This document shows positions 1 to 51,381 of a stretch of DNA of 64,000 bases, in pieces (the first letter of the stretch is position 1; the number at the start of each line of letters is the position of its first letter). This DNA comes from Raillietiella orientalis. Taxonomy: Eukaryota. Position numbers and translations under genes: made by a program. Below the pieces are notes generated by a model. It did not search any database. It saw only the letters and a list, made by a program, of their open reading frames with translations, and was not told the DNA's origin. The stretch lies in NCBI GenBank assembly GCA_036172245.1, contig JAYWIR010000020.1:2232001-2296000 (forward strand). The letters are read 5' to 3'.

Positions 1-300
1 CATCCGGGGTTTCTGGCTTCCACCAGAGCCGCACACCCGAAGCCAACCGAGGCCAACGAGATCACCCTGACACGTCCATTTCTTGGAGTCTGGATCCTTC
101 CTCCGGGCAGAATTCGAACCCTCGACGCGCGCCGCCGCGCGTCGCCGACGTGGCCTTCAAAGTGGGGCCTCCCCCCTTCCTCCTGCATCCCGCCATCTCA
201 AGGAACACTGGTGAACACTGGTGGTCCATGAGAGCTCCAATCGAGCATACAGCTCTGTTGGAGCTCGCCGGATCCTGTCAGGGAAAGGAAGTAGGGGATG
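1..300 (-). mobile_element. Decayed L1/Tx1-like LINE 3' fragment (probably continues beyond the window edge)
   Basis: Shares DNA blocks, in the same order, with the element at 55700-56050: ATTCGAACCC(T/A)CGACGC...CGCGCG at ~112 vs ~55760, and AACAC(A)TGGTGG(T/A)CCATGA...GCTCC at ~214 vs ~56001. Minus-strand translation gives a broken C..(M)DHH-VF-LE motif resembling the zf-RVT tail. Boundaries are approximate. Confidence 0.4.
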
Positions 301-14327: not shown

Positions 14328-15416
14328 AAGTTATTAAATTACTATGGGTAGTTGAACTTATTTGATGTCACCCATAAGTATTGAAGACAAATGCAATTTC
14401 TAAATTGTTTTATCATTTAGAACTATGCAGCTTATTGATCTTGGGAATGAAAACTGCTTGAATTTACAATAAGTTGCGATGTAAAGTCCCAAGTTAGCCT
14501 TTCAAAAGAAGCATTATCGAGAAGTTATGAATTGTTTTTGGTCTCTAGAATTAGAGGACAAAAATTTCAAAGTTAGCTGTCCAAAACAAAGTATTTTTGG
14601 TCTCTAAAATTAGGCACCAAGAATAGTTCATGATTATTCAATAATGCTTCTTAATTATAGATTCTTATTGCAGCGTATATTGTAGTAAAGCACAAGCAAA
14701 AACATCCAAAAATGTGAAGGCTTAAAATTATTTTTGGATTCATGAATGCAGCCTTGGTTATTGCTGCATAAAACAAGAAGTGTAAAAAAAGAAACTCAGT
14801 TGTTCCTGAAAGATCATAGGGAGGTTACATGACAGATAATGAAGTACACACACTCATATGCCTTCAGGAATGCTATCATATTTTGTCACAATATACAGCA
14901 AAACGTGCTAACGGAAAGCTGTTTTTACTAAAAATGGAAAACATTTTCATGAAAAAGGTTTTTTGGAAGCCATTCTAATTTGCTGCTGCTTCAAAATTAA
15001 CTCAAAATTAGAATTAAGTTGAAATATCATAGAAATTGACACAGGAAATGGTATATTCAAAAGAATAATGTAGATCCATCTCTGCAAATGTAATACTGGT
15101 ATTCAGCACTATGGCCAATGGAACAATGTCTTTTTTCATACCACCTTGCATGCTAACTTCTTTTTACCATTTTTTCAACACCACGTTTTTTATTCCATCT
15201 AAAATCTGGATACTCAGCATACTTTATTCCAACTTTAAAATTGATTTCCCTTTTTTTTTTTTTGTCTCCTACTAAAAGCAGAAACCATTTCCTACACTTT
15301 TGCAAAAGCACCTGAATGTGTGCACATATAGTGAACTGACTTGGTTTTCCCAAGACCAGAAACTAGGAGTAAAATAATCTATGATAAGTTATCGACAGTC
15401 ATCCATTAGCATATAC

Positions 15417-23193: not shown

Positions 23194-23513
23194 GTGAGTA
23201 TAAGAAAGGGGAAGCTATGTTTTATAAAAAGTCCCTCAAACGTACATGAATTTTCAGTGGATTTTGTTGAGATCGGTTTTAATTTGTATTTCGTTTCCTA
23301 GATTTTATAGTTTAGAAAATTTGGAATGTGTTTGTTTTTTTATACCAAGTTACAAGTGTGCATATGAAATGTGGACATGAAGGTCAAGGTTTTTCAGATG
23401 ACATTTGTTTTTATTGTTAGTATTGCCTTCATCGAACGCTTTTAATAAAGCCAAGGACAAGGTGTGCAAATTTTTGCCAAGTTCAGATTAATTTTGATGT
23501 TGCTTTTCTTTAG
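23194..23513 (+). other. Probable 5' UTR intron of the PP2A catalytic subunit gene
   Basis: Strong donor CC|GTGAGT at 23194 and acceptor TTTTCTTTAG| at 23513, 28 nt before the ATG. Confidence 0.5.
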
Positions 23514-23541
23514 AAGTATTGGAGTATTTGTCCTTTTAAAC

Positions 23542-24737
23542 ATGTTGCCGGAGAAAAGGGCGGAACTCAAAGAATTAGATCAGTGGATTGCACAGCTTGG
23601 TGATTGCAAACAGTTGCAAGAAAATCAAGTGAAAGTATTGTGTGAGAAGGTAAATAGTTAGTTGGAAAGTACTGTATAATGATGAATAAAAAGGCAAAGG
23701 AGATTCTTTCTCGGGAATCTAATGTCCAAGAGATTACCCCTCCTGTAACAGTATGTGGAGATGTGCATGGGCAGTTCCATGATCTTATGGAGTTGTTCAA
23801 AATAGGGGGAAACTGCCCTGATGTGAATTACTTGTTCATGGGAGATTATGTAGATCGAGGATATTATTCTGTGGAAACTGTCACACTGCTTGTGGCTCTT
23901 AAGGTAACTGACGATTATCTACATCAAAAAGTTAATGGTGTTATAGGTGCGTTACAAAGATCGTATCACCATTCTCCGTGGCAACCATGAGTCTAGGCAG
24001 ATTACTCAAGTGTACGGTTTTTATGATGAGTGCTTGCGTAAATATGGAAATGTTAATGTGTGGAAACACTTTACTGACCTGTTTGACTACCTGCCCCTTA
24101 CTGCCCTAGTAGATTCTACCATATTTTGTCTGCATGGTGGTCTCAGTCCCTCTATTGATACACTTGACCATATTCGTGCCCTAGATAGGCTGCAAGAAGT
24201 CCCACATGAGGTCAGCAATGTTTTTATTTTATTCAAGGACATTGGTGCATTCATTTATTTAGGGACCAATGTGTGATCTATTGTGGTCAGATCCTGATGA
24301 TCGAGCTGGTTGGGGAATTTCTCCACGTGGAGCTGGGTACACATTTGGCACAGATATTTCAGAGAGTTTCTGTGCCACAAATGGACTGAAGGCAGTTTCA
24401 CGTGCTCATCAGCTGGTGATGGATGGATTCAACTGGTCAGTGGTCACACCTAGAAATAGTCTTGCAATTCTCATCTTAGGTGTCACCATGAAAAAGTTGT
24501 CACCATCTTCTCTGCACCTAACTATTGCTATCGTTGCAGTAATCTAGCAGCTATCATGGAAATGGATGAAAACTTGGACTTTGTGTTGTAAGTATTATTC
24601 CCATGCTCCCGCGTTTGCCCGGCCCCTTTTGGCCCCATAAAACACGCCTTTGTGTGTGTTTCAGCTTGCAATTTGACCCTGCCCCCCGCCAGGGTGAGCC
24701 TTTCACGGTCAAGCGCACTTTGGATTATTTTCTCTAA
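23542..24737 (+). CDS. PPP2C (mts): Serine/threonine protein phosphatase 2A catalytic subunit, isoform with last exon A (tail ...[16 protein letters not shown]), 311 aa
   Basis: Exons 23542-23649, 23694-23903, 23947-24210, 24263-24435, 24480-24587 and 24665-24737. PPP motifs GDVHG, GDYVDRG, RGNHE, HGGLSP, RAHQL and SAPNYCYRC are intact, and the N-terminus is PP2A-type (ELDQWI...LCEKAKEIL). Confidence 0.95.
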
Positions 24738-24916
24738 TACGAGTTAGTTTGCTCGCCCCTCCCTCAATGCCTGCCTTTCTCCTTTCCGGACTAGGTCAAG
24801 TTGTACTCCCTCTTCCCATCCTAGTGTGGGGTTGAGTGTTGAAACAAATAAAATTAGCACAGAATATAATGCCTTGTAAGGGTTTTCCCAGGGGCCGGGC
24901 AGATTGGGAGCTGGGA
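24599..24916 (+). promoter_or_regulatory. Long-range intronic RNA duplex (24599-24627 with 24890-24916) enclosing PP2A last exon A
   Basis: TCCCATGCTCCCGCGTTTGCCCGGCCCCT pairs with AGGGGCCGGGCAGATTGGGAGCTGGGA: 27 pairs (3 G-U), two 1-nt bulges, and a perfect 12-bp core TGCCCGGCCCCT/AGGGGCCGGGCA. Both arms are GC-rich islands in AT-rich introns. Confidence 0.8.
24847..24852 (+). terminator. Proximal poly(A) signal for PP2A last exon A
   Basis: AATAAA 110 nt after the exon A stop codon and upstream of the exon B acceptor. Confidence 0.7.
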
Positions 24917-24953
24917 TTGACAGGATACCCATCAAGTGCTGTCCTTCTTTCAG

Positions 24954-25026
24954 CCTCAAATTTGAACCCGCACCACGCCGGGGTGAACCCCATGTAACCC
25001 GTAGGACGCCTGAATACTTCCTCTGA
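24954..25026 (+). CDS. PPP2C (mts): Alternative last exon B of the PP2A catalytic subunit (tail ...[23 protein letters not shown])
   Basis: Acceptor TCCTTCTTTCAG|, same phase 2 and same 73-nt length as exon A, open to TGA. It matches the canonical PP2A tail [19 protein letters not shown] more closely than exon A does. Confidence 0.93.
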
Positions 25027-25102
25027 ACATTGCCACTAGGACCCAATCTGCACGCCGTCCTTTATTCCTCGTTTCTGGGCATTTAACACCAGACCAATAG
25101 CC

Positions 25103-25108
25103 AATAAA
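25103..25108 (+). terminator. Distal poly(A) signal for PP2A last exon B
   Basis: AATAAA 77 nt after the exon B stop codon. Confidence 0.7.
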
Positions 25109-28100
25109 AAACCATCTTTTGTGCTATCAAGTATTCATGGCCTTTGCCTCACAATATGGTCAAATAACACAACCTGCATGTAATTGGGATCTTGGATGCT
25201 TATACGATGGGTATCCATGCCAGGAGTGTTTGCCTGTGGCAACTATGATCTGTATGTTAATAAAGTCTTACCTTGGGATCTACATTGATCAGGATATGGT
25301 CCCTTTTGCACTGGAACAGAATCCCTTTAGTGGACAGCAGCAGTAATTGAAAATTGGGAGAATCATTGGCTATAGTTTGCCTGGTGTGCCAGTTGCAATA
25401 GCTAAGATCTGTCACACAAGGCTGCAAAGGCACTTGGCTGTGGAAATGTTGTTCCCAGTTGTCCTCATGTAGCCTGATAAAAATTATTGCTTGTTGGAAA
25501 TTGGTAGTCTATTCTCAACCTCTGTTCATAATCTAAATAACCAGCAACTTCACAGCCAGAATGGGTCAGATTTCTTATGTAAATAATAGTCTGCAAATCA
25601 ATAAATGGAAAATAGACTTTTGCAATGGGTTACATGGAAAATCTTAACATAATTGCATTGCAGACAAGGTCTTTGATTGATTAATGCATATGACTCAATA
25701 TGAATGTGATTGGGTGAGGCAACTGAACATTTGGAGGATGTAAACATGGGCATTGCATTAATGTGACTGACTGTATTGAAATGTTTTTTTGAAGTGGATT
25801 AACAGATAAACAGTCATATCTAATGTCCTAAACAATGAAATCCTAAGAATACTGCGTATTTTGGAGATAATTTCTGCATTGATTCTGTAATCTTGAACAT
25901 CAGAGTTTTGGATTTTGAACCCCATATTAAATTTTCCAACAATAACTCCATCAATCACTCAGCTTGATGTGTGCTGCAGTCTTAGAATTCACATGTCAAA
26001 AAACTCACTTTCTGCAAAATGAAGTTCACAGTTTGAACCCATCAACTACTTTTTGCTACAGTTTTTCCACCTAAATCAGAAATCAATAGGATTTAAAGAA
26101 AATGGAAAGTCATGAAGGGAGGAAGGGGTTTGATCTTACAAGAATCACTGCATAGAGGGATGCTATCAGCATCCTTGGCATTTTACATCTTTGTAAGAGG
26201 CAACTGAGTAATCCCCTCTATGAAGAGGTTTGCTAAACTGGTGTGACAGTTAAATAAAACTTCCCAATGCTATAAAAGACTTCATAAATAACTTTTCAGC
26301 ATCTAAAGAGAAAAGGTATTCTGATGGTTCAGTAGTTCATACAGACTCAGTCTTTGTAAACATATTAGATTAATTGATTAACGTTTCATTAAATCTCCTT
26401 AGATGGCAGCTCGCATTTTCTTTGTTATTATATCTTTGAGAGAATTTCAGATGTTTCAATTAATGAATATCATAAATGTATGGAGTATCGAAAAAATGTA
26501 TAGCATCGCACACCATAGTAAGGTTCATAGTAAACGTAGTAATGCCTTTTCTAAAGATAAGGAATTTAGTGATGGATATAACAATAGTTTAATTTATAGT
26601 CTTTTTTAATATACATATGCAGAATTCAATAAAAAGATGCTTGTTTAAGATCATTTACAAAATTGTTACCAGGGATAACCGACAAGTTTGGGCTATATAC
26701 TGAATTCTAACCGAAAGTATGCATAATCCGACATACACAGTCATGTAAGTGGTATTTTGAAGCTTTGGCAAATGACATGGGGGCGCAGCGACACGCTCAA
26801 GCATGGAAACGTTTCCTCACTTGGACAAAGGCACTTTGAAATGGTCACAGTGCACAACCGATAAAAAGAAGAAAAGAAAAAAACGCACAGCCGAAATTTT
26901 AAAAGGGCACTCCTTCCGTTTTTTTTTTCAGATTTTTAAAGACGAAATGTGAAGACCAAATGCGTTCATTATCGGAATTCTCGTGAGAATGCAATATTCG
27001 AACGCCACCGTGCTAACAGTACTACTGATATAAGTAACGACCTTGCAAAGTAATTAGTTTTTACCATTTAGGTACGAGGATTTCAGAAGACCATTTAAAT
27101 GATCTTTTCCGAGATTATCATCCGATTAAGTTGCAAAAACTGAAGTCGTGCTTTCCTGAGTGAATGAATCGAATGAATCGTCAATGCATGTACAATTCAT
27201 GGTCTGTACACCTCCAAATACTTGTCCATCTCCCACAAAGGGAATTTCGACTTCGATTCAAAGAATCTGACTGAGGATTCAAGCAAGGGTTCATCAATGA
27301 AAGCATTTTACATGGAAAAGTAAAATAAATGGGTCATACTGAAGGTACAGATACAGTTCCCATCATGATAACAGGCTTTCCTAACAGGCAAAGACAGTGA
27401 TGGCAATGTAGTGCTGTTGAGTAAGATAATGGAAGTATTTGAAGAGAAGTTCTTCCAGAAAAGGCTATTCTCAATTTGAAGTGCTGGCAAGTGGGGCACA
27501 TCTCAGGACCCACGATGCGCAGCTACATTTCCGGAAGCTCTGCGGCTGCTTCGTATTTCTTTCAGGATATTTCAACGTGTGCTCCTTTTTTTCCAAAATT
27601 TGGGATGTTTCAGTAAAACACTGTTTTCCGTGAGAGGAGCTGCTTTGCCCCCAACGTTTTCTGAGAACGATGTCTGTCGAGACCTTTGACCACATTTGAT
27701 GTGGAATATGAAGGTAGCCGATGAAAGCGGATTTTAAGCAAGGATGGGAAAACACCGATAGCCATTACAGCCGAAAGAACGTGCACCCCTAATTCTCCAA
27801 AGAGACAGATAAAGAGAAACAAAGTTCAGAAAGAGAAATCCAAAGTAGGCTTTCGTGTGATTATCGTATCTGAATGCGAATTCCGAATCCATCCCTTCGA
27901 ACTCCCCTCCCCTCCCCATGGAGGCAGCAGCCATATGGAAAACACACAAAACGGTTTCGAAGAAGTATGATTGATTACGTTAGGGCCCTTTACTCGTACA
28001 TTAACGAGGGAAATTTCATTCCCATCGATTCAGCTCTTCGCACAATGTACGCGACGCTTAAGCACACCCAACTTGGAATCCACGCATCATCTCTTGGAAT

Positions 28101-31966: not shown

Positions 31967-34900
31967 TTTCCCCCGGTACGAATCTGCTTAATTAGCGCAC
32001 TCTTCCAATTTTCTGTGGGGCTGATGCTCTCCCGACGCGGCCTTCCCGCCGAGACCCCCGGCAACTCACGCCCTCCATTGTTGCTTGGTTTTGCCAGAAG
32101 TTTTTTTTTTGATTTTTAAGTCTCGATTTTCTTTTCCTGGAGATTTTCGCCGGGTTTCCCCTCCACGCTGACCACGTCACCCACCTCCTGCTCCAGCCTG
32201 CAGAAGGAAGATTGCAATTTATAAAGTTCGATCTATCATTCCCCTCCAAGGCATGCCCGCTATGCAGTTACATGTGGAAAAGATGGAAAATCGATAAGCT
32301 GCTAATTCGTTAATACTCCTGGCAGTAGATGTTCGAACAGAGACGAAAATGCCTGGTTAAATAACGCGCACACAAAAAGTGAGAAATGTTTTTTTGAGAA
32401 CTCGGATCGTGTACGGTGCTCCAAAGGTGTCAATATGTGTGTGTGTGTGTGTTTTTTGTTTGCATTAAAAACCATCAGACACAAAAATCATCGATTATCA
32501 ATTAATACGTTCCGTGTCTGCTCCACATTAACTGTAATGGAAGTACTCAAGTTCCGAGTACATTTCCTTTTTTGCTTTTTACTTCCAATGCTTTAGATTG
32601 TTGGTGATTACATATATCTTTTAGAGTAAGTTAGCTCCATGAATACGAATCAGTCCATACCGCGAAAAGGAAAATCATGTGTTTGATAATAAATTCATTC
32701 TCTACTCTAAGTCAATTTCGCTTATTTGAGTAAATAAATACCCACAGGGCGCAAGAACAGATTTTGTCTCAGTAAAATCTGTTCTTGTGTCCGGTGGTTT
32801 TGCTGCGTTGAATCCAATAGATAGGTTGTGTAATTCAGAATTTCGAGAAACTTTCAAGACCAGCTGCTGAAATGTTAGATGCGCAGTGGTGGTGACGGCC
32901 GTGACGAAATCACACAATGTTCCCAAAAGACTGTGTTCACAAATCAAAGGAGAGGTATAAGCTAAAGGAGCCCAGTATCAATAAAAATCATCTGAGCATC
33001 ATTTGTCAAGTTTCCGGTTCCTTCCTAGTGATACAGTTTCGCCCGGTTCGAGAGCATGCCGAAAGTGAGAGAAGTGTTGCACAATTCTTCCGTAAACGAA
33101 TGCCATTTTTCAAAACACCAATTCGAGCAGCATGAGCTGCTAAAGTCGTATTAATCCCTGATCAAAAAATCGCCGATCAAGCTTTCGTGTTTTTGTTGAA
33201 CAGGAGTGTTTGAATGACGGCCTAGTTTCAGTGTTGTGAAACTAAAAGCTATTTAAATGATAAGAAGAGAAAGTGAGAAGCAGCATTATAAACAACCATC
33301 TGGGGCGATATCAGTTGCTATTCGTCGAATTTCAAATTTTTGTTTATGAGACGGTTAACAGAGGTCCAGTCCTACATATTCTGACACCCAGAAAAGATGA
33401 TCGGATTCCTGTAATGAATTGGATAACATTACGAATGATATCTTAATCTTACATTACTGGTCAAAAATAAGATATATAGCTGCTACGTTTTTGCACTGAG
33501 AAGCCAGACATATGCTATCAAAAAACCGGTGCTTGCAGTTGGTCAAGAGATGCAGCAAGCATTTCGTCTGAAGAACCAAAAACTTTTTCAAACGGTTTGT
33601 TCCAAAGAAAGGAACATATTCCAAACCAACAAGTTTTGTGTGTCTTCCACTAGGCACTGTAGCGAAGGAATTGCTGTTTCGGTCTCTGCAAATTCCTTTT
33701 TGTAGCCGGAGTGAGTGCGTTAGGTTGAGAGTAGGGACCACAAATGATATCGCAGCTAAGAAATGTTCCGGATAGTCATACGGAGCAAATTCATACCGAA
33801 AAAATCACTGCAGATCTTCAGAATGATTAAAAAGAAGAAGAAAAAGGGGGAAAAAAAGGGTCCATAGCTGGTCGTGGTAGCACGGGTACAGTTTGGTTGT
33901 TTCATGCTTGCAACTGAAGTCCAAAGGTAAAAAAAAAGATTCACCGAAAACGTACAAGCACCATCCGAAATCTGCCAGTAATGCAAAGTCCATGTTTTAA
34001 GACGAATGTGGATGGACAGCTGGAAAAGAAGGCTACAGACGTTTGCAAGTGGGTTGCAGTCCTCATGACTTGCCGACGCAAGCTTCCCGTTCTGCAGTCT
34101 ATTGCAGATGAACTTGAAGATGCCAGCCCTCTGATAATGACGAATCCACTCACTGATTGCGTAATGCAGTGTCGCTTAGACTGGCTCAAACAAAGCAATG
34201 CAAGGACAGTGGAGGTAATTGCTAATAACAATCTGCAATCCGAAGAACGTTCCCAAAATTTGCGTGATGGCAAATGGGTTGCATTTGATACCATTTCACT
34301 GGCTGCATGAAACTTCACGAACCCAGTCCAGAATCTGTGTTCAATCAGCTGTTTCCGAAAGGAAACACTCCTACTGACATGTACACACAAAGCTTGGTCA
34401 GCATCTGAAATCAAATGTGGATTTTTTTTTCTTTTCCTTGGGTTTTCCTTACACAACTTTTATGCAATCTCTTTCGAAGTATTCACTTCTCTCGAAGAGG
34501 ACAAGGTCCCGTGAGTACGCAGCAAGTGGAACAGGACGAAGACCAATTTTTGCGGGATAAGCAACATCGACAAGTTGTTCAGGCTACCAGGATTCTCTGT
34601 TTTCTATGTCTCCTGCTGTTTGTTTTCGACGGAAAATGCACTCTGCTATCTACCATCGAGGACTGCTTTTGCCGAGTGCACATGCTGTTCTTGGAAACGC
34701 CATTCGCTCAGCACGGATGCTTGCTGAGCGAATGGCACTAGCGAGTGGGTTCTCATCTGAATCAAGCCTTTCTTGCGACTCCGAAGAATGTTGGAAAACG
34801 ATGAGATGATCTTCGACCTTTTCTTTTTTCTTTTTTTTCCTTTTTTTGCGTGTGTCCTATTTCTGCTGCTGCAGTGGCACCGACACGCTTCGCCCCCTCC

Positions 34901-37319
34901 CTGACCGCACAAGAACAAAAACGATCCGAAGACAACTGAAGCATTTCCTGAAGCGTCAGCCGTTACTCGGTCACACCGAAATGTCAAGATGGAGTACGCA
35001 AAAATTACCGCTAAGTGGTCAGTAGCGTCAAGTGATCGTAAGTCCAGTGCCCGAAAATTCCCATATCGATCTCGGCGACGGAAATCTTGGCTCTCTGTAA
35101 TAACGCCTCCAGGCGCTATGTCACGACCAAATCCCGATCCATAGCTGCGGGTTGCGGGAGGCACACGCGCCATGAGCGAGCCTGCTAGAGAGAAAAAAAA
35201 CAACCGGAAGGCAGATGAATTGCGATTCTTCCCAGAGTCTTGTCGATGTTTGGTGCGCTGGATCGGAGGGGGTTTCGCTTGGCCTCCAGCATTGGTCTCG
35301 TCTATCTGCTTTCCCTGTTTGAGAAGATGAGGAGGACGAGTTCCAGCCTAGCACCTTGCCCTAGCCCGTGTCTTCCATGTGGACACAGCGACCACCTGAT
35401 AACCGCCGAGACGCGCGCCATCTCCAAGGAAACGGATTTTCTCTGTGAGTTCCGTGACGCTGTCGAGGATGTCTAAATTTCCTCGTGACCTCAGACGATT
35501 CACGAAGCACAGGCGGAGCATAGGGTGGGGCACTGCCTCTGTCCCAGGAAAGTCCTTTCTGTTTCCCATCGGAGATGGCCAGCCTCCGCGGTGATTGCAA
35601 GACGCAGCATGCATCAAGTTGGCTTGGACAGTGGCAGCCGCAACTCTGGAAGCCGAGTTCCCTAATTCCTCCACAGCCGGGTGCTGATGCTGATGCCGAC
35701 GGAAGAGCGGTAGAGATGGCTGAGGGAAAGCCCAGCGAGAGGTCCCGTCTTGCTGGAACCAGAAGTTCCTCTCCAACAGAAGCACCTATGACATTATCGA
35801 GACATCCTTCGTGGTGAAAGATGCGAGGCTGTCTCTGAACGAGCACAAAAGCCTTTTAAAGATGGAAAGTGAAAGGGGGGGGGGGAAGAAGGTTTTGCCA
35901 GGCAACCGAGATGCGGCCAGAACTCGTGAAAGCGTTTCACGCGCTGTTCTCAAAGGTCGAAAGTACCGATGCAGGCTGTTGACCGGCTCTTGATCTCAAG
36001 GTGCTGAAAAATGTTCGGGAGATCGGAAGAGCGTCGGCGGGGGCAATGCGTGGGACGTGAACCTTCCAGAGCCAGCGAAGCTGCAGCTGTTGGGGTCGCC
36101 GCCAGGGTAGGACAATCCTTCACGCCGAGTAATTGATTCGCGGATCTCCTTCCTCGCATTTATTCACACCGATCCACGCCTTGGAGAGATCGGGCTGCTG
36201 AAGGATCGAGTGCTGACGTCATGCTCGGAAGCCCTTCGCCGGCGGCTAGTGCTCGAGACGCCTCCTCTCTCGGTGGAGAGCTACTCTTCGCTCTCGTTGG
36301 ACCAGCGCCTGAGATGAGATAGGTTTTTGCTCTCTTCCTTTCGCGTTTTCGTGGGAGGATTCTGGCGACAAGAACGTTTCCACCCTTCGGGTCAATTGAC
36401 TGCGGGTCAAAACAATAAGCGGCCTGTCCTGACCAGCTACAAAGAAACGAAGCGGTCGGCTGGGGAAAGCCGGCCAGCAAGGCCTCTTTCTTTCCCTTTG
36501 TCCGGCAATCTGATACGAGAACGGCGTATCGCGTGGCTGCAGGCAGGGGACCCGCAAGGTGCCATCTCGAACGCCCCGGAGCAAAGTCTGTTTTCTTGCG
36601 CAACCTCCGGAACCGAAACCTCCTCGGGTTACCTTCGCGCTACCGCAGCTTGCCGGGAGCCCGACGCCTCGGTCTCTCCCTCTCTTCCTCCTCTCGAAGC
36701 GCGGGCGCTTGCCCCGGGCGCGCACAGGACCACCCTCTTCCTGCGCCATGGCCCTCGGCCACCTGCTCGGTCTCGTTGCACCGACTGGGATCGCTTCCCC
36801 TCTGAACGCAGACCTTGGGACAGCCTCCTCGAGTGCCCCGCAGGAAGAACAAAAATACGCACGCACGCATGCGCGCAACTCACCACGCCTCTCCAGATGC
36901 TGCTGCCGCGTGAAACCGCCCTTGCGGACGGGCCTGCGCTCGCCCTCTCCGGAGGGACCACGGAAGGGAACCGCTCTTCGAGTTCGTTCTTCTGAAGGAC
37001 TTCCCCGAAGGGAGCACGCGCTCTCAGCAGCACGGCGAGGAACCCCCGGGGGATGGTCTTCCTCGAGAAGCCGATCCGGGAGACCACGGCTCGGATATCC
37101 CGAAGTGAAACTCATGGGGGAGGCGCTCACTTTTCCGTGGCTCCGCTGATGTCTCGGGCGGGGGGGAGCCTCCCTGTCGGAACTTCCTGGGAACAGCTTC
37201 CGCGTCAACCTCCCTTTGTGCTGCTGTCGAGGAGCCGCGTCGACAGCAACCTGTTCGCTCGCACGCAGTAGCGATCGAGGAGTGCACGGGCGACAGGATA
37301 AAAAACAGCACCCATGACG

Positions 37320-37450
37320 GAGGAGGAGGAGCAACAAAAGAGGAAGAAACGACAATGGGAGCTGCAAGAGAAGCAGCAACGACGGTGAAAGCAGGAGCAG
37401 CAGACACTAGCAAGAGCAGCAGCTACAGTGGAAGAAGCAGCACCAGCACT
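37320..37450 (+). repeat. Low-complexity (GCA/GGA)n-like tract
   Basis: Degenerate AGCAGC/GGAGGA runs, which produce spurious Ser/Ala/Leu-rich ORFs. Confidence 0.6.
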
Positions 37451-37499
37451 CATAATGAAAGCGATACTATAACAGCGAACATTCTTCGTTCATTCCATC

Positions 37500-37690
37500 G
37501 AAGGACTTCTCCGAAGGGGCGCGCTCCCGGCAACCTGGACAGGAATCCCCCTAAGGAAGGATCGGATCCATGCCACAAACCGGAGGGGAACTCGGAACCC
37601 TCCGTAACTCCTGGAATGACCCCGGAGGGACCACCCCCAATTCCGGCCAATCGACAGGGTATCCGGACTCCAGAGCGCGCACAAGCGCTA
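37500..37690 (-). mobile_element. Decayed LINE-like repeat fragment related to 54300-54520 and 50050-50300
   Basis: CAAACCGGAGGGGAACTC...CTCCGTAACTCCTGGAATGACCCCGGAGG aligns with CAACCGGAGGGGAGCTC...CTCCGTGATTCCTGGAAGGACCCGGAGG at ~54403. Minus-strand translations are VIPGVTEGSEFPSG...GSDP and VLPGITEWELPSG...GADP. Confidence 0.55.
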
Positions 37691-39099
37691 TGTCAGTGTC
37701 GTTATGTCACCCTTGTCGTCACCTGCAGCCTTGCTCTTTGCTTGCCCGGAAGAAGGTTTGGATGGATCGGGCATGCAGGAGGCGGCTCATTGGTTGGCGG
37801 GCCCATACTGTTTCTGGAGCTGAGATGACCCACGAAGTCCACCCATCGGAACCCCATTGCTTGCTAAACGAGAGGCAGCGCGTCTTCCATTCTTTCATCT
37901 GCCGAGTGCAAACCGTTGACCGTGATGTCTGGTCCCGTGGAGATTGACAGTAAGCGGCCGAGAGGTTCCGCTTCTGCCAAGGACTCCTCCCTGGGCACCT
38001 GGATCGCTGCCAGCAGCCTTTCCATTCCTCGTCGAACCCGCAGGCGAGCAGTCTGTCATCGTGGCCACCTCGCGGTGGCGCTGGGGGTAAGACCCACCCC
38101 GCGAACGGTCGTTCGGGGGTCCCTGGCTCCGGCCATGGAGGCAGCCCCTGACGATCGAGCGAAAGAGACCTCCTTCCTCTCGAAACGGAGTCACGGGAGG
38201 CTCAGCTCTCGGATCAGCAGCATCCGAAACTCCGCGGAAGTGGCGCGCGGCACCAGGCTTGGCGCATGGAGCGGTCGTCATCAGGGGATGAGTGGCCCGT
38301 CCCTCCCCTCAAACAAGGCGTTTGCAGGATGACGGTAATCGCTCCGAGAGCCGCCTGCAAAACTGCGCAGCCGGTGACGTAAGCCGGAAGCCGGCACCTC
38401 AGGTCGGCGGAGGCTTTGCTGAATTTCGGGACCGCCATCTTGAAGTAAAAATAAAAACAAAATGGCGCGTCGCAAGCACGACTCCTCTTCAGCACGTTCC
38501 ACGCGCACGCAAACAACAGGGAGAAACCCGTTTGTTATTTTGAAGAGGCTCCTGATACTGCGTCTTTACGCGCACGTGACTCCAGGTTCGAAATGCTGAA
38601 CCGAGCCGTGCAGGAACGTGAGGTCATCATCTGTTTCACGATTCCAACTAGCTGCGGGCTGCCGTGTCCTGTGGCGAACCTCACTAAGTAATAGCTTCAG
38701 GTGCACTCACCAAGGTATCCAGGCAACCAACCAGGCTTTCCTCATGAACGGAAGCATGCTGATCTCGATCACGTAAAAACCTACATGGACCGTTTCCTTT
38801 GAACTTGCTCAAAACATCTCAGAGTACCGAAGATCAGCTGGTTCTCATTCCGATTCAAGAGGAAGGACGGTTTGTTTGTCAGGAAAGACACAGAAAGAAC
38901 CACTGGACGATTGCTGAAGGTCCTGGGAGCGCTTGGAAGCTTTGTCGCTCGATGCTCTCAGCCTCACCATTTACTTCTAGCATGCATGCACGTTTTTTTT
39001 TTTCTTCTAGCTTCGAGGGTTTCATGCGAAGCACTGGAGAGCCAAACGAGATTCTTCAGGCTGCAGCCTGCACATCTTCCACGCAAACCAGCGGAACCA

Positions 39100-39960
39100 G
39101 CCACAGCGCGATCTAGGCGCTCTGCCTCGAGAAGTAGCTGCCCGTGGTCAGGGAGACGCAGATGGTCGCACAGCAGCTCAAGGGCCGTCAGGGTCGCGTG
39201 CCGACCGGTGGTCCAGAAGAGGGCGTGGTCGGGGGCACCACCGCCAGTCCGATTGAGCTCAGGCGAGCTGCTGGGAATCCCACAGGAAGAACTCGAGTGG
39301 TCCCAGAGCCGAAGAACAACCGGGTCCTCCCCCTGAAGTGGCAGGAGTCGGTACTTTGCTGTTGCACGGGGGCCTCCCATGCAACGTCCGTTGGCCTCGC
39401 TGGACCCGGGGGACGGTGAACCACAACTGTTGCAGATGCTGGAAGCGGGAATCCCAGCTCCTCCACCTGCTTGTAGACTGTGTTGCCTTCCATCCCCTGT
39501 AGTTGCGTTACCCAACGGCCCTTTGCGAACCAACGGACGGTCAATCCCAGGAACGCGATGAAGGACCTCTTCGTGCGCGACGCCCTTTCGCCTGCCGCAT
39601 CCCCAGAAGCTCTTTGCTGATGCCTACAAGGGATTTGGCGTCCTGGAGATACGCGAGAGGAGGACGGCGCGATAGAGGTGCCATCTGTTTCACTCTGCGC
39701 TTCCTGCGGACGACAGCCAGACGCCCCCAACTGGCGCATACTCGGATGGGACCCGCCAGAGTCCTGGAAAGGATGCAGAGGACACCCTACAGCACCCGGT
39801 GATCCCTTTCCTATCCACACTTATATATTTTATTTTATTTTTATTTTTGTTTGCTCCTCCCTCCCCCTCCGCTGACGAGAAGGACCTCGACGGCCTGTGT
39901 ACCGTTTAATCGGCAGGTTCCGAGCATTTTTGGACGATATAGGGCCGATGGCCCTACACG
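39100..39960 (+). mobile_element. L1/Tx1-like non-LTR retrotransposon 3' end (zf-RVT region plus 3' UTR), decayed
   Basis: Frameshifted LHGGLPC...NCCRCWKRESQLLHLLVDC zinc-binding motif. 39269-39958 is closely similar to 57808-58499. Confidence 0.75.
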
Positions 39961-41743
39961 TGTATGTTTATTGTTTTTTAAAATAACCGTCTCGGCTTGA
40001 GTGAGTGCTAAACCGCCAGTCCGAGGTCTCCGTTAAACCCGGTGAGGTGCCTTAGTCTGGCGTCGCACTCATCCAGCGACTGCATCTAGTGGTGGCCTTC
40101 ACTGGAGATCAGGAAGACCCTTACGTGCACTTCCCGTGTGAACTTCTGCTCAAGCAGCCCATGGATCCTGTCCAGGTCGCTGGGGGGTCTCGGTCTCCGT
40201 TCCCCGCAGCATGGTCCTGGAGGAAAGAGGGGTAGCAGAGGAAGGGAAAGAAGAGGGGGAGGGGAACCGAGATATCCCGCGTGGGACCCCGGAGTGGGAA
40301 AAAAAGCGAGGTGGACTGAGGACTGAGGGGCGGAGGCACACGCGCACGCCTCCCTGGCTGCTGTCGGCCTCCTCATCTGCGATGGATGCGAGCACGACCG
40401 ACCCGATGGGTCGGTTCGGGGGGTGAAAGGGGGCGCCGACCGACGAGGACACGCGCGTACACCCTTGCGCTGCAGTAGCAGCAGCAACAGCAACCACGCA
40501 CGGTACGGCGACAGGTGCCGCGCGCGCTCTGTTCCGCTCCTCAAAATTCTTTTTCTTCCAGACGTGCTCGTAATAGAAATGGAAGGGGAGGGAGGGGAAA
40601 GCATTCTTTGGATGGGAGCCTCTTAGTCTGGGAGTCTTAAGGGGTAGCATTTTTTTAAGCAATAAAAAGATCAACACCCGAACGAAGAAGAAAATCCGCT
40701 TGTTGGGTTCCATGAAAAAGGAAGGTCTTTCTAACTGGGTGGTATTCCCAGCTGGGTGGCTGGTGATCCCGAACGACAAGGTAACTATTCCACCACATCC
40801 TCGTGTTGCTCTTCGTATCGCGCGAATTTCTTGGGCAGACTCGATTCAGCGTGGATATCGGTCGGAACACCACTTCTCTTGCAGCATCGAACGTGCGCCA
40901 AGAAGACACAGGCTCGTGCGGGAGCTTTGTGGAAGTAGATGCTCCATAGGATCAAGCTCTCCGTAGGTCAGAGGCCATTATGAGGCGAAGTCAGCACTTG
41001 TTTATGGGACGTGGGAACGAGTCCGAAAGAAACGCAACAGCGCGACTCCTGTTCTTACCAGCGGCCGGCAGCAAGATATCGTATCTTTTCTTGACGAATT
41101 ACCGACTGGTCTGTCGGAGCCAAAAGGTCTGCCTATCTCTTGCCTTTCCACAGCCGCAAGGTGGTCCTTTTTTTTTTTATCGTAGAGCAAATGAACGCTA
41201 CCACTGAGGAGGGGCACCGCGATCCACTTGGTCGAGCTGGGCGCTCGCAAATTTCTTCCTCTTGTTCGCGTTTGCTGGTTCCGCCTTCGTGTGTAACCTG
41301 TCTCGTTCGAAACGGCAAATGTTTATTTGGAAGAGACGGAGGAATCGCCGATTGTCCGGAGAAGGAGAAAACTTAAGCAGGAGCAGCCTGGAAACCTAAC
41401 AGTATCCAAGTTTCATAATAGTAATGATAATAGAAATCTTCAGTCCCAAAAGCAGGTTTCTATCGGATGCCACCGAAATATTCCTTTCCAGGAGGTTCCG
41501 ATTCATCGAGAAGTGCGTCTCGTGTGTGACACAATGATGCACTGTTCGGAAGATAAATGCTCTCCGTCCAAGGTCAATTGGAAAGATGGAAATCTCGAGA
41601 GAAAACAAAGTGCCAATCGAGCGTAGAGGTACGCAGGACGGCATGAATGGCGCGGGAGGTTCGATATGTAGAAACACGTGTGGTTTCTGCACGCGAGATC
41701 ACGAGTGAGCTTGACACGACTCGGACGTAGCTGGTTTCAAAGA

Positions 41744-44700
41744 ATGCAACTCCGTGGAAAGTGTTGTGTGTTTTCCCTCCTAACCAGTATTTGCATCTAC
41801 TGCGTGGCGGAACTAACGGAGTCTCCCGAAGCCAAGACCGCTGCTACCACCGAGATAAGTACGATTTTTGTTGACTCTTTGGGGGAAGATCCCGGAAGCT
41901 GGAGCGAACCTTACCCGAGCACGGGAACACTTCTGACCACGGAAGCAGTGCCCGTAGTCTATGATGCGCGCGCGGTGTACGGCGAGGAGCTCTTCGTTCC
42001 AAAGTGCTGTCCGAAGAACAAACTTTTCAACATGTCGCAGAGAGCTTGCGTTCCGAGGCCACCGCTGACCGAATGGGTGCCAAAGGTTTACGCTAGCGAC
42101 TACATCCCCCTGTTCAAGTGGAGGTACCACCCAGAGTCCGTGGATTTTCAGCCTGAGCACATGATCCTGCCTTGCCATCCGTCCATTCTGCTGGAAAACG
42201 ATTTTTACTTCCTGGACACTGGAGAGCTTTACGTACCCTTCCTGTTCAGCACAGAAAAGTTCGATCCCCATTGCTTTTGCTTGGATGATCTCGCTATCGT
42301 GAATCCAATATACGGAAATGAGGAAATCGTACCTGGGGCCGGGGTGTGTCCATTTCTGGATGCAAACTACACCGTGTTTAAGAAATGCTGCCGCAAGGAC
42401 GAATTCTTCGACACGGAGAAATCTGTTTGCGTCCCTCGGCACCTGCAGTACCGTTCCGACATCCAGGAAATGCTGAAAAGCAAGAGGTATATTCCGCAGC
42501 AGGGTTTCCCGTCCTTTTGCAATCCCATCATACTGGGATCTTCCGAGTATGCGAGCAGGATCAGATTGAAATACCACGTGGACAAAGAAGGTTCGCTTTC
42601 ATTCGACTGCATGAGCAAGACATATGGCTTGAACAGCTACTGCCTGGAGGATTTCCTGTACCCAAAGTCCAAGATTGTTAGGTTACAAGGATTGGTTTGT
42701 GATATGGACTCTATCGACGAGGAAACATTGGAAGAATTCATCGCGCCGAACGCATCATGTGTCTCCTTGCTGTTTTCTGCTCAATGCAACGATAGCAACT
42801 GCGTTCCGAAGTGCTGTTCCACGAATGAAGTCTTGCTGGACGGCATCTGCATCAATTCGAACAGCTCGGAGGTCGCGGATTTCGTGTCCCGAAAGATGGA
42901 ACTCGATGAGCCGTTGAGGTATCGCTCTTGGTTCCCCCTGTGTCAAAATATCATCAAAGTCGTCATGTACGATGAGGTTTCAAGTTCAAAGTATCCTGAG
43001 CTTGTGACGGATGAGTTTCACTTACTACCTGACAACTCGCTGAGGGTTGTGAACCTGAAAGATGTATTATCTTGTGATGACGAAAGAATCCTCGTTCTGA
43101 ATGTATCCGAGTATTGCCTCGAAGCAGCCATCGTGCCCGTTTACGGGAAGCAGACTATTCAGAAAGCCGCAATGGTGTGTTTGCTCTTGCCCGAAACAAA
43201 AGAGCAACACTACGACACTGTGATTATCGTCTTCCTAGTCATCTCCGATGTGTTTCTCTTCATAACATTCATCATATACCTATTCGTGCCAGAATCAGGA
43301 GTGCAAACTAAAGGGAAGAAAAGATTGATGTGCATGACTCTGTTCGGACAGATTCTGATTTCGTACATCCTCGCCCTGTTCTTCGTGATGCTTATATTAC
43401 TGGTCCAGCAGTTCATCCCTCCTCTCATAGACGACATATCGTGTTCTTCTCTGGGTAAGAAAGCTTTTTACAATTTCGACGCCCTGCTTGCGTGTTTCTG
43501 TTTTTCCTTTTTTCTTCTTCATTTGTCCTTTCATCGCTATATTTGAATATTTGAGCCGAGATTTGAGATTCTTCGATGGATGAGGAGATGAACGAGCAAG
43601 ATACTTTCGCATCTCGAGGTGCCGTCATTCCTGAAGTATCTATCTAGAAGCGGCACTTTTATTTTGGGCTTTGGTTTGCTGGCATCAGACGATTTACGAA
43701 GGGGCAGTTGCGAACTTTGGTGGCGTGGTTTAGAACTGTGGTAAGCTAACGCGGTGACGGCTCGTTAGCACGCTGCCGTGTGTTACAGAAGGAAGAGGAC
43801 TAAGATGATTCGCTTTCCTGGCGCCTCGGCTTCTTTTGGACAAGGGAACCGATAACGAGCCGCGAGATTCCGATGCAATAACTCGATAATAGTCGGAGGT
43901 TTTGGCAGTACAAAGGTCAAACCCAGCGAGACGACCGAAGAAGTTCCACTACTTGTCGAACTGCTTGTGCAATGTCGTCACACAAGCAGTTCGACTTCTT
44001 TGACAGGTTTCAGTTTAAAGGCTGGCTGAAAACTCAAAGCCCCACGTAGTGAGTGCGACTGCTACACTACATGTGGCGGGAGCATTCCCCTGAACGCATA
44101 GCCCACGCATACCGCGGTTATTTCCTGAAGCTCCGAATTCTAATGATTCTGAGTTCGGGGACGAATGGTCGAATCTGGATGATGAATTCCCGAGGTTGCT
44201 TTGCTGGCGTGCGCTCAATCGTTGGTGCCGCCATGCATGCTGGTGCTCTCTGGGTCTCGGCTGACTCGCTGCATAGTCAGCTGGATGCGATCACGCTATC
44301 TACTTTATTGGCATGCATGCTCTGCTCATGTACGAAAGAGGCAGAGTCTCCAGAAGCGGATTGGAGTCCAGCTCGTCCAAGATCCGTTCCGATCTTTATA
44401 ATTAACTGGTTTGCCTTCGGATGCGGCAAATGCCAGAGTTCTTTGCAAGCATGAAGGACTGGATACATGATTTTGATGGATGGTTAGCTTCCAGAATGCG
44501 AAGAGGGCAATAATTGAAGCCAACATTTGCACTTATTTCTTTCGACCTTAGGAGCCGCAGTTCTGCCAGAGTTGCAGCTCGGTCTCCATACCAGATGCTA
44601 CATTCGGCGCTTTCCACTTCCACCTGGGTGTTTCTATCCACAGATTCCTTTCTCCAGCAGTCCCTCTTCCCCCTTTCCCTTCGACACTCGTAAAAGCCCG

Positions 44701-50700: not shown

Positions 50701-51381
50701 TCATCTTCATTTGCAAAAAAAACATCATCAATTTTCTGAAGCTCAAGCTGGTGGAGGTCATCAACGCTCCGGTGGTCCGCCGCAGCTCCGCCAGCCTGAG
50801 CAACATAACGAAGAGGATGACCCTGTCCACGGAGAAGAGCAGCAACGATTGCTTCGAGTCCGGAGCATCGAACGACGAGAGAGGAATCATTGCGTACGGG
50901 AGGAAGATGTCAAATGCCATCAGGTGGGCCAATCACTCGGTCCGCGGCGTGGCAACACGAGGACTTTTACCCTTAGGCAACACTTGGACAGGATGCATCT
51001 GTTTTCAAATTCGTCCGAGGAGAACACAGACCCACAGACCAGGAACAACAGCGAAGACACCAGAGACGTTGTGGTTCACGTAGAAGCCATTCAGGATGAT
51101 GCCAAAGCCTTCAGCATGGGGGACCCTCCTTCAGCCAAAAATCCCGGATTCCCGAAAGGTCAGAAACGAACAACTTTCGGAGGGACCGAAGGACGACCTT
51201 ACCGTTAGGCAAAGAATGCCTAGCTGACGATGACCCAGACTGGCTGCCTTCTCCCGGCCCGAGAGATGCTCCATCTGCAGCTGCAAAGAGAAACGGTGTC
51301 GCCCAGGAGACTGCCGAGGAGAGCGTGCGGACCACGATGAATTTCATCATACATCGTTTGACAGGCAGGGAGGATTGCTAA
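41744..51381 (+). CDS. mthl: Methuselah-like class B GPCR with signal peptide, three Cys-rich ectodomain modules and 7 TM helices
   Basis: Exons 41744-43454 (ectodomain, TM1-2), 49253-49331 (TM3 YFVLATFFWCNVMSIDL), 49539-49705 (RFKFYCLWGYGGP...RPRFGKYKCWF), 49765-49918 (FFLLPVGVLLLANLCFF) and 50552-50923 (KLILIMGISWIFEIIS...NSLQGLIIFIIF). All are GT-AG and phase-compatible. Tail exons (~50977-51158, 51209-51381) are less certain. Confidence 0.9.
49990..50400 (-). mobile_element. Decayed LINE-like fragment inside intron 4 of the mth-like gene
   Basis: GGGGTGAACTCGGAAC (~50127) and GGAGACCACC (~50280) are shared with the repeat fragments at 37585 and 55710-55800. Boundaries are approximate. 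Confidence 0.45.

What the first reader, a model, noticed from the sequence alone, without database searches (positions are those of the whole stretch)
24599..24916. 27-bp intron-intron RNA duplex that would loop out PP2A exon A and its poly(A) site
Seen in sequence: 24599-24627 is complementary to 24890-24916 (27 pairs, 3 G-U, two 1-nt bulges, perfect 12-bp GC-rich core). A possible 9-bp extension (AAAAC..CCTT 24639-24650 with AAGGGTTTT 24878-24886) covers the likely branch region of exon A. The duplex starts 11 nt after the donor and ends 37 nt before the exon B acceptor, bringing the two together. The downstream arm lies just past the proximal AATAAA, so cleavage at site A would remove it. 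Established: flanking complementary boxes control exon or terminal-exon choice in arthropod genes such as Drosophila Nmnat and Dscam. Inference: competition between proximal 3' processing and duplex formation selects the PP2A tail.
Basis: partly seen in the sequence, partly recalled or inferred. Interest (0 to 1): 0.9.

Follow-up and report, generated by a model that had tools for sequence, protein, structure and literature searches.

The report
RNA bridge flanking alternative PP2A exon
Two GC-rich stretches on either side of the first of two alternative last exons of an arthropod PP2A phosphatase gene can pair into a very stable 27-base-pair RNA helix that would loop that exon out and favour the second protein tail; this kind of splicing control is known from fruit flies, but it has not been shown to work here.

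Summary
24599-24627 pairs with 24890-24916: 27 bp, 3 G-U, two 1-nt bulges, a 12-bp perfect core, -53.4 kcal/mol. It beats 1000 of 1000 shuffles. Its mean pair probability is 0.98. It is the strongest compact local duplex in the 64-kb window apart from one transposon-like foldback.

The gene is a six-exon PP2A catalytic subunit with two homologous last exons. Exon A (24665-) ends in ..RTLDYFL and exon B (24954-) in ..RTPEYFL. Synonymous sites between them are saturated (pS 0.80, pN 0.32). One RNA-type contig joins exon 5 to exon A and stops 10 nt past AATAAA, before the downstream arm.

The constitutive introns are 43-52 nt. The exon-B intron is 366 nt, but only 11+37 = 48 nt lie outside the helix.

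The best reading is a Nmnat/PGRP-LC-type RNA bridge that loops out exon A and its poly(A) site and promotes exon B. Exon B use, conservation and function are all untested, because no relatives' genomes could be reached. It is a new member of a known kind. The new element is the target, the PP2A tail.

The parts
24480..24587 (+). Constitutive exon 5 of the PP2A catalytic-subunit gene; it ends in phase 2 (..DFV + TT)
   Evidence: tblastn of P0097 on the window; intron table with GT..AG ends; a contig of run X1 covers 24563-24587 and splices from 24587
24588..24598 (+). Shared donor (GTAAGT) plus the 11 nt that precede the helix
   Evidence: Sequence; joint 24587->24665 with GT..AG ends
24599..24627 (+). 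5' arm ('docking' arm) of the 27-bp helix; 29 nt, GC 0.72, inside the 77-nt intron 5A
24645..24664 (+). Acceptor A region: a U/G-rich tract (TTTGTGTGTGTTTCAG) ending in AG at 24663-64
   Evidence: Sequence; splice joint to 24665
24665..24737 (+). Coding part of alternative last exon A ([28 protein letters not shown])
   Evidence: covered at 0 mismatches by the X1 contig
24738..24862 (+). 3' UTR of exon A with AATAAA at 24847-24852. The RNA-type contig ends at 24862. This is a probable cleavage site but only a weak hint, because contigs cannot prove an RNA end
24868..24889 (+). U/GU-rich stretch (..TGCCTTGTAAGGGTTTTCCC) between the probable cleavage site and the 3' arm. It is a candidate downstream element of poly(A) site A (inference)
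   Evidence: Sequence; mean unpaired probability 0.54 with the helix present and 0.41 before arm 2 exists
24890..24916 (+). 3' arm ('selector' arm) of the helix; 27 nt, GC 0.70; lies 28 nt past the contig end and 37 nt before exon B
24917..24953 (+). Last 37 nt of intron 5B: TTGAC (24917-21; fits the YTRAY branch consensus, a motif recalled and not scored), then the pyrimidine tract CTGTCCTTCTTTCAG and acceptor B
   Evidence: Sequence; branch-site assignment is inference
24954..25026 (+). Coding part of alternative last exon B ([28 protein letters not shown]), in the same phase as exon A
   Evidence: both splice forms give an open 311-aa protein
25027..25264 (+). Presumed 3' UTR of exon B with AATAAA at 25103 and 25259
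   Evidence: no RNA evidence

Best explanation
The two arms form an intramolecular RNA bridge in the PP2A pre-mRNA. The bridge promotes the distal last exon B by looping out the proximal last exon A.

Shown: the arms pair with very high predicted stability. They bracket acceptor A, exon A and its AATAAA in a 262-nt loop. Exon A is spliced in at least one RNA-type data set. The two exons are old duplicates that both kept their reading frame.

Inferred: once the 3' arm is transcribed (about 28 nt after the likely cleavage site A), the helix draws the common donor next to the exon-B branch site and acceptor. This turns a 366-nt intron into one with only 11+37 = 48 nt outside the helix, which is the size class of this gene's constitutive introns (43-52 nt). 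At the same time acceptor A and poly(A) site A are put inside a loop, with the U/GU-rich stretch after site A at the foot of the helix. If exon A is spliced, or site A is cleaved, before the helix forms, or if the helix is kept open, tail A results. If the helix forms first, tail B results. The outcome is a choice between a ..RTLDYFL and a ..RTPEYFL tail on the phosphatase.
For: - Helix: 27 bp, -53.4 kcal/mol, with a 12-bp perfect core.
- Against chance: 0 of 1000 shuffles reach the observed inter-segment duplex (-71.8 against mean -41.1, sd 4.7). The fold of the region has z = -4.33 with 0 of 100 shuffles as good.
- Pair probability: mean 0.98, minimum 0.85, in three contexts. Adding the 3' arm lowers the MFE from -82.6 to -120.6.
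- Each arm is the other's best partner. Arm 1 against 2.9 kb downstream scores -54.3, next best -34.1. Arm 2 against 2.9 kb upstream scores -53.7, next best -39.4, which is at acceptor A.
- Window rank: third locus of about 6350 start positions, behind only one foldback element.
- All 3 non-Watson-Crick pairs are G-U on the sense strand and there are no mismatches. The sense duplex is -53.4 and the antisense -48.3.
- The arms are compositional outliers: GC 0.70-0.72 against 0.25-0.41 in the gene's other five introns. Intron 5A minus arm 1 is 48 nt, and intron 5B outside the helix is 48 nt, against 43-52 nt for the others.
- An X1 contig joins 24587->24665 (GT..AG), has 0 mismatches over 223 nt, and ends at 24862, 10 nt past AATAAA.
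- Exons A and B are homologous (alignment score 39 against shuffle mean 13.8, 0 of 300). They share 14 of 23 residues, and 10 of those 14 use different codons. pS is 0.80 and pN 0.32. This argues for long purifying selection on both exons.
- Mechanistic precedent: Nmnat box 1 / box 2 mutations and compensation (PMC2724269, passages), and docking/selector pairings at 3' variable regions (PMC6191721, discussion).
Against: - No relative's locus could be examined, so there is no conservation or covariation evidence at all.
- No RNA evidence bears on exon B.
- The exon 5 -> A joint exists in RNA although the helix is predicted at P about 0.98 at equilibrium. So the helix does not shut exon A off, and its in-vivo occupancy is unknown.
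- GC-rich parts of the same window give loose duplexes of -75 to -89 kcal/mol in an 80 x 360-nt scan, where this region ranks only 10th of 1588. Compact helices of -40 to -47 also occur there. Part of the stability is therefore simply GC content.
- The strand asymmetry is modest (5 kcal/mol).
- The helix starts only 11 nt from the donor, so it could hinder donor recognition rather than help.
Confidence: 0.55

Rival explanations
1. The inverted repeat is real DNA but has no role in exon choice. It would be a neutral, fairly young local rearrangement or the ends of an inverted-repeat-bounded insertion that happens to flank exon A.
For: Other inverted repeats exist in the window, for example the foldback at 60.66-61.27 kb and 60-nt arms at 14506-14652. 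A 3-nt direct repeat ATT abuts both arms (24597-99 and 24916-18, read) and could be read as a target-site duplication. There are no conservation data.
Against: The 12-mer core and the intron sequences have no other copy in the 64-kb window. The segment between the arms contains an exon homologous to exon B in the right phase, which an inserted element would not be expected to carry. All three departures from Watson-Crick pairing keep pairing on the sense strand. The arm positions leave 48 nt on each reckoning, matching the gene's intron size. A 3-nt repeat in AT-rich flanks is weak evidence.
Confidence: 0.25
2. The helix forms but acts mainly on 3'-end processing or on the donor, not as a bridge. 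It might hide the U/GU-rich stretch after poly(A) site A, or the nearby alternative pairing of the 3' arm with acceptor A might mask that acceptor, or the helix might damp use of the shared donor 11 nt away.
For: The 3' arm starts 28 nt after the contig end at 24862, right after a U/GU-rich stretch. The 3' arm also pairs with 24661-24686, which covers acceptor A and the start of exon A, at -38 to -39 kcal/mol. Its reverse complement matches that stretch at 19 of 24 positions, and 3 of 300 shuffles score as well.
Against: AATAAA stays unpaired (0.98) and the U/GU stretch is not more paired with the helix than without it (0.54 against 0.41 unpaired). The alternative pairing is about 15 kcal/mol weaker than the main helix. 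These effects would in any case push the same way, towards exon B, so this is a variant of the main reading more than a true rival.
Confidence: 0.1
3. Exon B is an unused relic, or exon A a minor by-product, so the gene makes essentially one tail and the helix has nothing to select between.
For: Only the exon 5 -> A joint has been seen. No A-like tail was found in 41 recognisable tails among the 120 best PP2A hits, nor with the A-tail query.
Against: Exon B keeps an open frame in the right phase. Its tail matches the reference tail of P0097 at 87% against 74% for exon A. It has a clean pyrimidine tract and two downstream AATAAA. Synonymous sites between A and B are saturated while 14 of 23 residues are kept, which is unexpected if either copy had been free to decay.
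Confidence: 0.1

Closest known systems
Drosophila Nmnat intron 4 box 1 / box 2 stem (Raker et al. 2009, PMC2724269; passages read)
   Same: A common donor is followed by a proximal acceptor leading to a terminal exon with its own poly(A) site, and a distal acceptor giving a different protein C-terminus. Complementary boxes surround the proximal acceptor. In Nmnat the stem is needed for distal-acceptor use, shown by disruptive and compensatory mutations.
   Different: [quoted passage not shown] Here the 3' arm lies beyond the poly(A) signal and the probable cleavage site, so the whole terminal exon with its processing signals is looped out and cleavage would remove the arm. The two exons here are homologous duplicates and the introns are tiny. 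Nothing has been tested functionally here.
Docking-site/selector pairings at 3' variable regions: Drosophila PGRP-LC, CG42235, Pip (Pan et al. 2018, PMC6191721; abstract and discussion read)
   Same: An intronic element just after the constitutive donor pairs with an element upstream of a distal 3' cassette and activates it. There is interplay with cleavage/polyadenylation and transcription kinetics.
   Different: Those systems have several selectors competing for one docking site. Here only one strong partner exists (next best -34 and -39 kcal/mol), and the proximal exon has no selector of its own.
Docking/selector control of internal mutually exclusive exons (Dscam, 14-3-3 zeta, srp and others) and its origin by duplication of exon plus stem-loop arm (Ivanov & Pervouchine 2018, PMC6071210; abstract read)
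   Same: Tandemly duplicated homologous exons, with RNA pairing between the intron after the constitutive exon and the intron before a variable exon.
   Different: The exons here are terminal, so exclusivity comes from polyadenylation. No competing selector set is present, and no sign was found that the arms arose by the duplication (no direct repeat of an arm).
PP2A catalytic subunit C-terminal tail regulation (Leu309 methylation, Thr304 phosphorylation; PMC8630191 passages; PMC3903491 abstract in listing)
   Same: Both tails keep the ..T-x-[DE]-Y-F-L end, so the methyl-accepting terminal Leu and the Thr and Tyr are present in both.
   Different: In known systems the tail is varied by modification. 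Here it would be varied by exon choice. Tail A replaces the Pro after the Thr by Leu and changes five further residues relative to the reference tail. My three literature searches found no report of alternative PP2Ac tails.

Membership tests
Long-range intronic RNA stem controlling alternative terminal-exon choice (Nmnat type) | Two complementary boxes in the same pre-mRNA that bracket the proximal alternative acceptor | tested here: met
   27-bp helix 24599-24627 x 24890-24916; acceptor A at 24663-64 lies inside
Long-range intronic RNA stem controlling alternative terminal-exon choice (Nmnat type) | Stability beyond what composition gives | tested here: met
   0 of 1000 and 0 of 100 shuffles; P(pair) 0.98; third locus in the window scan. 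In the looser 80 x 360 scan it ranks only 10th of 1588
Long-range intronic RNA stem controlling alternative terminal-exon choice (Nmnat type) | Boxes conserved or co-varying in related species | not testable with these tools
   No genome is held for the window. Metagenome scans gave 0 loci for the A tail and 24 distant, single-tail loci for the B tail. Protein searches found no close relative
Long-range intronic RNA stem controlling alternative terminal-exon choice (Nmnat type) | Both alternative 3' exons are used in vivo | tested here: inconclusive
   The exon 5 -> A joint is seen in one contig of run X1. Nothing bears on exon B. Codon evidence suggests both exons are maintained
Long-range intronic RNA stem controlling alternative terminal-exon choice (Nmnat type) | Disrupting the stem shifts the isoform ratio and compensatory changes restore it | not testable with these tools
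   Needs a minigene or genome editing
Competing docking-site/selector system (Dscam, 14-3-3 zeta, PGRP-LC) | Two or more selector sequences compete for one docking site | tested here: not met
   Arm 1 has one strong partner (-54.3); the next best in 2.9 kb downstream is -34.1
Competing docking-site/selector system (Dscam, 14-3-3 zeta, PGRP-LC) | Variable exons are tandem duplicates | tested here: met
   Exon A and exon B alignment score 39 against shuffle mean 13.8, 0 of 300; 14 of 23 residues shared
PP2A catalytic subunit (PPP family, PF00149) | Full-length similarity to PP2Ac with the metallophosphatase domain and a ..YFL C-terminus | tested here: met
   Exon 3 is 91-94% identical to the best of 7581 hits carrying PF00149. 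tblastn of P0097 covers all exons. Both splice forms are open and 311 aa long
Inverted-repeat transposable element (MITE-like) | Multiple copies; terminal inverted repeats flanked by a target-site duplication | tested here: inconclusive
   No second copy in the 64-kb window. Only a 3-nt ATT repeat lies at the arm ends. The genome-wide copy number cannot be tested

The most novel reading that the evidence does not exclude
A single arthropod PP2A catalytic gene encodes two versions of the regulatory C-terminal tail. One has the usual Thr-Pro and one has Thr-Leu plus five further changes. The RNA bridge would be the switch that decides, in competition with proximal cleavage/polyadenylation, which tail is made. 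PP2A holoenzyme composition (for example B55-type against other regulatory subunits) would then be set at the level of pre-mRNA folding and not only by tail methylation and phosphorylation.
Probability: 0.3. Interest if true: 0.75.

Novelty: new member of a known kind. Interest (0 to 1): 0.55.

Why it matters
The PP2A catalytic tail decides which regulatory subunits the enzyme binds. In the passages read from PMC8630191, B55 subunits depend on C-terminal methylation, and Thr304 phosphorylation in mitosis disrupts B55 binding. A gene that offers two hard-wired tails is a natural experiment on this 'tail code'. Tail A keeps the Thr, Tyr and terminal Leu but loses the Pro that follows the Thr. 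By inference from general knowledge of proline-directed kinases, this would remove that kind of control.

An RNA helix that picks between the tails would add a well-defined, easily mutated case of structure-controlled choice between splicing and polyadenylation in a gene with minimal introns. There the idea that a helix restores a short 'effective' intron length can be tested cleanly. The mechanism itself is not new (Nmnat, PGRP-LC).

Tried and rejected
- Own genome: none is held, so paralogues, copy number of the arms and relatives could not be searched.
- Earlier notes of this scan: nothing by place, sequence or words.
- Sequencing runs: one search listed a single run, X1, with a small share of words and no holder on record as RNA. 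When laid, it gave three contigs. Exon B, its UTR, exons 3-4 and the arms have no cover in X1. This says nothing about their expression.
- Metagenome scan with a degenerate pattern for the A-type tail: 0 loci.
- The same scan for the B-type tail (TPEYFL): 24 loci. All have a single tail. tblastx identities to this gene's main coding exons are mostly about 60-83%, and in many of the loci the coding exons run together. They are distant PP2A genes (protist-like is my judgement from the low identity and the names of the hits) and useless for intron comparison.
- Protein search with the ORF that ends in tail A, longer proteins only: 2 candidates, none scored.
- Protein search with exon 3: 120 listed, best 94% identity. 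Of 41 recognisable tails, 0 are A-like and 31 are identical to the commonest tail.
- Protein search with the ORF that ends in tail B: 21 hits. The few that carry a source name are a choanoflagellate and a brown alga, and none is a close relative.
- Shorter proteins were not searched.
- Rfam on 23300-25700: only two sub-threshold chance-level rows (SNORD60 at 21.8 bits against a cut-off of 42, mir-320 at 18.3 against 55.5).
- Origin of the arms by the exon duplication: no direct-repeat relation between the arm regions and the exon B flank.
- Literature: three searches for alternative PP2Ac tails found no such report. Subscription journals and supplements were not covered.

Full report
**What is at the locus**

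The + strand of 23.5-25.3 kb carries a PP2A catalytic-subunit gene. Exon 3 alone (88 aa) finds 7581 proteins at E <= 1e-20. The best listed hits are 91-94% identical and carry PF00149. A 309-aa reference from that search (P0097) aligns along all exons.

The coding introns are 44, 43, 52 and 44 nt, and a 52-nt intron lies in the 5' UTR. All are GT..AG with GC 0.25-0.41. The 5' UTR joint is also seen in RNA-type contigs.

After exon 5 (24480-24587, donor GTAAGT at 24588) come two homologous last exons in the same phase. Exon A (24665-24737 coding) ends ..[11 protein letters not shown]. Exon B (24954-25026 coding) ends ..[11 protein letters not shown]. Either splice gives an open 311-aa protein.

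A neighbouring 624-aa ORF (41672-43543) looks like a Methuselah-type receptor whose nearest clusters are arthropod (score 0.93). I did not try to name the species.

**The observation**

The core 24616-24627 / 24890-24901 is 12 nt and 100% complementary. The full arms 24599-24627 and 24890-24916 give 27 pairs with two 1-nt bulges at -53.4 kcal/mol. Read from the sequence, these are 24 Watson-Crick and 3 G-U pairs with no mismatch.

- The helix is part of the MFE and the centroid fold of 24588-24953 (-124.3 kcal/mol, z = -4.33, 0 of 100 shuffles as good).
- The best duplex between intron 5A and the stretch from stop A to acceptor B is -71.8. In 1000 dinucleotide shuffles the mean was -41.1, sd 4.7, best -58.8, and 0 of 1000 reached it.
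- In the partition function the 27 pairs have mean probability 0.98 (minimum 0.85) in three contexts of 366-548 nt. Adding the 3' arm to the growing transcript drops the MFE from -82.6 to -120.6.
A different 5-bp extension reaches 0.33-0.39.

**How unusual it is in this DNA**

A compact scan (30-nt arm against the next 450 nt, every 10 nt, + strand only) puts this helix third among loci at -50.1 in that register. Only two parts of one foldback at 60.75-61.19 kb rank above it. The next locus is -47.3 in a GC-rich block.

A looser scan (80 x 360 nt) is dominated by GC-rich blocks and ranks the region 10th of 1588. GC content therefore explains part of the energy. The shuffles show that it does not explain the complementarity.

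Each arm is the other's best partner by about 15-20 kcal/mol within 2.9 kb. Neither the 12-mer core nor the intron sequences recur in the window. Rfam has nothing above threshold.

**RNA evidence**

One public run (X1, coded; 'RNA?' is a guess, but its contigs skip two GT..AG introns) holds a 223-nt contig. It joins 24587 to 24665, matches with 0 differences, and stops at 24862. That is 10 nt after AATAAA (24847-52) and 28 nt before the 3' arm.

This shows that exon A is spliced. It is a weak hint that exon A is cleaved before the arm, because contigs cannot prove an RNA end. Nothing in that run covers exon B, and this is no evidence either way.

**Are both exons real?**

The acceptor regions and 5' parts of exons A and B align (score 39 against shuffle mean 13.8, 0 of 300). 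They share 14 of 23 residues, and 10 of those 14 use different codons. Nei-Gojobori gives pS 0.80 (saturated) and pN 0.32.

With only 23 codons this is a small sample. It is still what an old duplication with selection on both copies looks like. Exon B matches the reference tail at 87% and exon A at 74%. The commonest tail accounts for 31 of the 41 recognisable tails among the 120 hits, and none of the 41 is A-like.

**Geometry and proposed mechanism**

The helix starts 11 nt after the donor and ends 37 nt before exon B. Directly after it comes TTGAC, which fits the YTRAY branch consensus (recalled, not scored), followed by a clean pyrimidine tract. Outside the helix the 366-nt exon-B intron therefore measures 48 nt. 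Intron 5A without its 29-nt arm is also 48 nt. The gene's other introns are 43-52 nt.

The arms thus look like GC-rich additions (GC 0.70-0.72) to two minimal introns. I infer that the helix lets a machinery tuned to very short introns use the distant acceptor. At the same time acceptor A (a U/G-rich tract), exon A and AATAAA are enclosed in a 262-nt loop.

The 3' arm is made only after site A has been transcribed. A weaker alternative pairing of the 3' arm with acceptor A and the start of exon A (-38 to -39 kcal/mol; 19 of 24 matches, 3 of 300 shuffles) would act in the same direction.

Every step after 'the helix is predicted' is inference.

**Comparison with what is known**

The nearest case is Drosophila Nmnat. 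There, boxes surround the proximal acceptor of a terminal exon, box mutations cut distal-acceptor use and compensatory changes restore it. [quoted passage not shown] Here the 3' arm lies beyond the poly(A) signal.

PGRP-LC, CG42235 and Pip use a docking site and several competing selectors at 3' variable regions, with the same interplay with polyadenylation and transcription rate (PMC6191721, abstract and discussion). Here there is one pair only, so the competing-selector criterion is not met.

Ivanov and Pervouchine proposed that such pairings arise when an exon is duplicated together with one arm of a stem-loop (PMC6071210, abstract). I found no trace of that origin here.

**What could not be done**

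No genome is held for the window. The two metagenome scans and three protein searches reached no close relative. Conservation is the decisive computational test and remains open.

Three literature searches found no report of alternative PP2Ac tails. These searches do not cover subscription journals or supplements.

**Verdict**

Reading it as a Nmnat/PGRP-LC-type RNA bridge that favours exon B fits every feature I could compute, but it rests on prediction and analogy. I give it 0.55. A functionless inverted repeat remains the main rival at 0.25. It is a new member of a known kind. Its appeal lies in the target, the regulatory tail of PP2A.

Noticed in passing
window 60664-61266: A large foldback: nested inverted repeats with arms of 25-47 nt at 88-96% complementarity (I2, I3, I5, I10). 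These are the strongest duplexes of the window (-62 to -139 kcal/mol). It overlaps a minus-strand ORF (60711-61121) whose motif recalls mariner/Tc1 transposases (recalled, not tested).
   Followed up: partly
window 41672-43546 (+): A 624-aa open frame with a cysteine-rich N-terminal part and a hydrophobic C-terminal part. The nearest Atlas clusters are Methuselah N-terminus / 7tm_2 proteins, commonest phylum Arthropoda (score 0.93).
   Followed up: partly
window 24650-24659: A (TG) run immediately upstream of acceptor A (TTTGTGTGTGTTTCAG). UG repeats at 3' splice sites are binding sites of TDP-43-type proteins in other animals (recalled). This is a possible second layer of control of exon A.
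   Followed up: no
window 24661-24686 with 24890-24915: The 3' arm can also pair with acceptor A and the first 22 nt of exon A (-38 to -39 kcal/mol). Its reverse complement matches that stretch at 19 of 24 positions.
   Followed up: partly
window 24621-24636: GGCCCC occurs twice, 4 nt apart (GGCCCCTTTTGGCCCC), at and just after the end of the 5' arm. The GGGGCC of the 3' arm could therefore slip to a second register. The 5-bp extension 24631-35 x 24880-84 has probability about 0.35.
   Followed up: partly
window 14506-14652: An inverted repeat with 60-nt arms at 75% complementarity and a 27-nt spacer (I1). It may be a small hairpin element.
   Followed up: no
window 23336-23905: Contigs of run X1 differ from the window at 23413, 23547, 23831 and 23846 (all transitions) and confirm a 52-nt GT..AG intron in the 5' region (23459->23512). 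X1 is therefore the same species but probably another haplotype or strain.
   Followed up: no
window 1-5000, 34600-40800, 44000-60000: Long GC-rich blocks with overlapping open frames on both strands and no obvious coding signal. They give many loose RNA duplexes of -75 to -89 kcal/mol.
   Followed up: no
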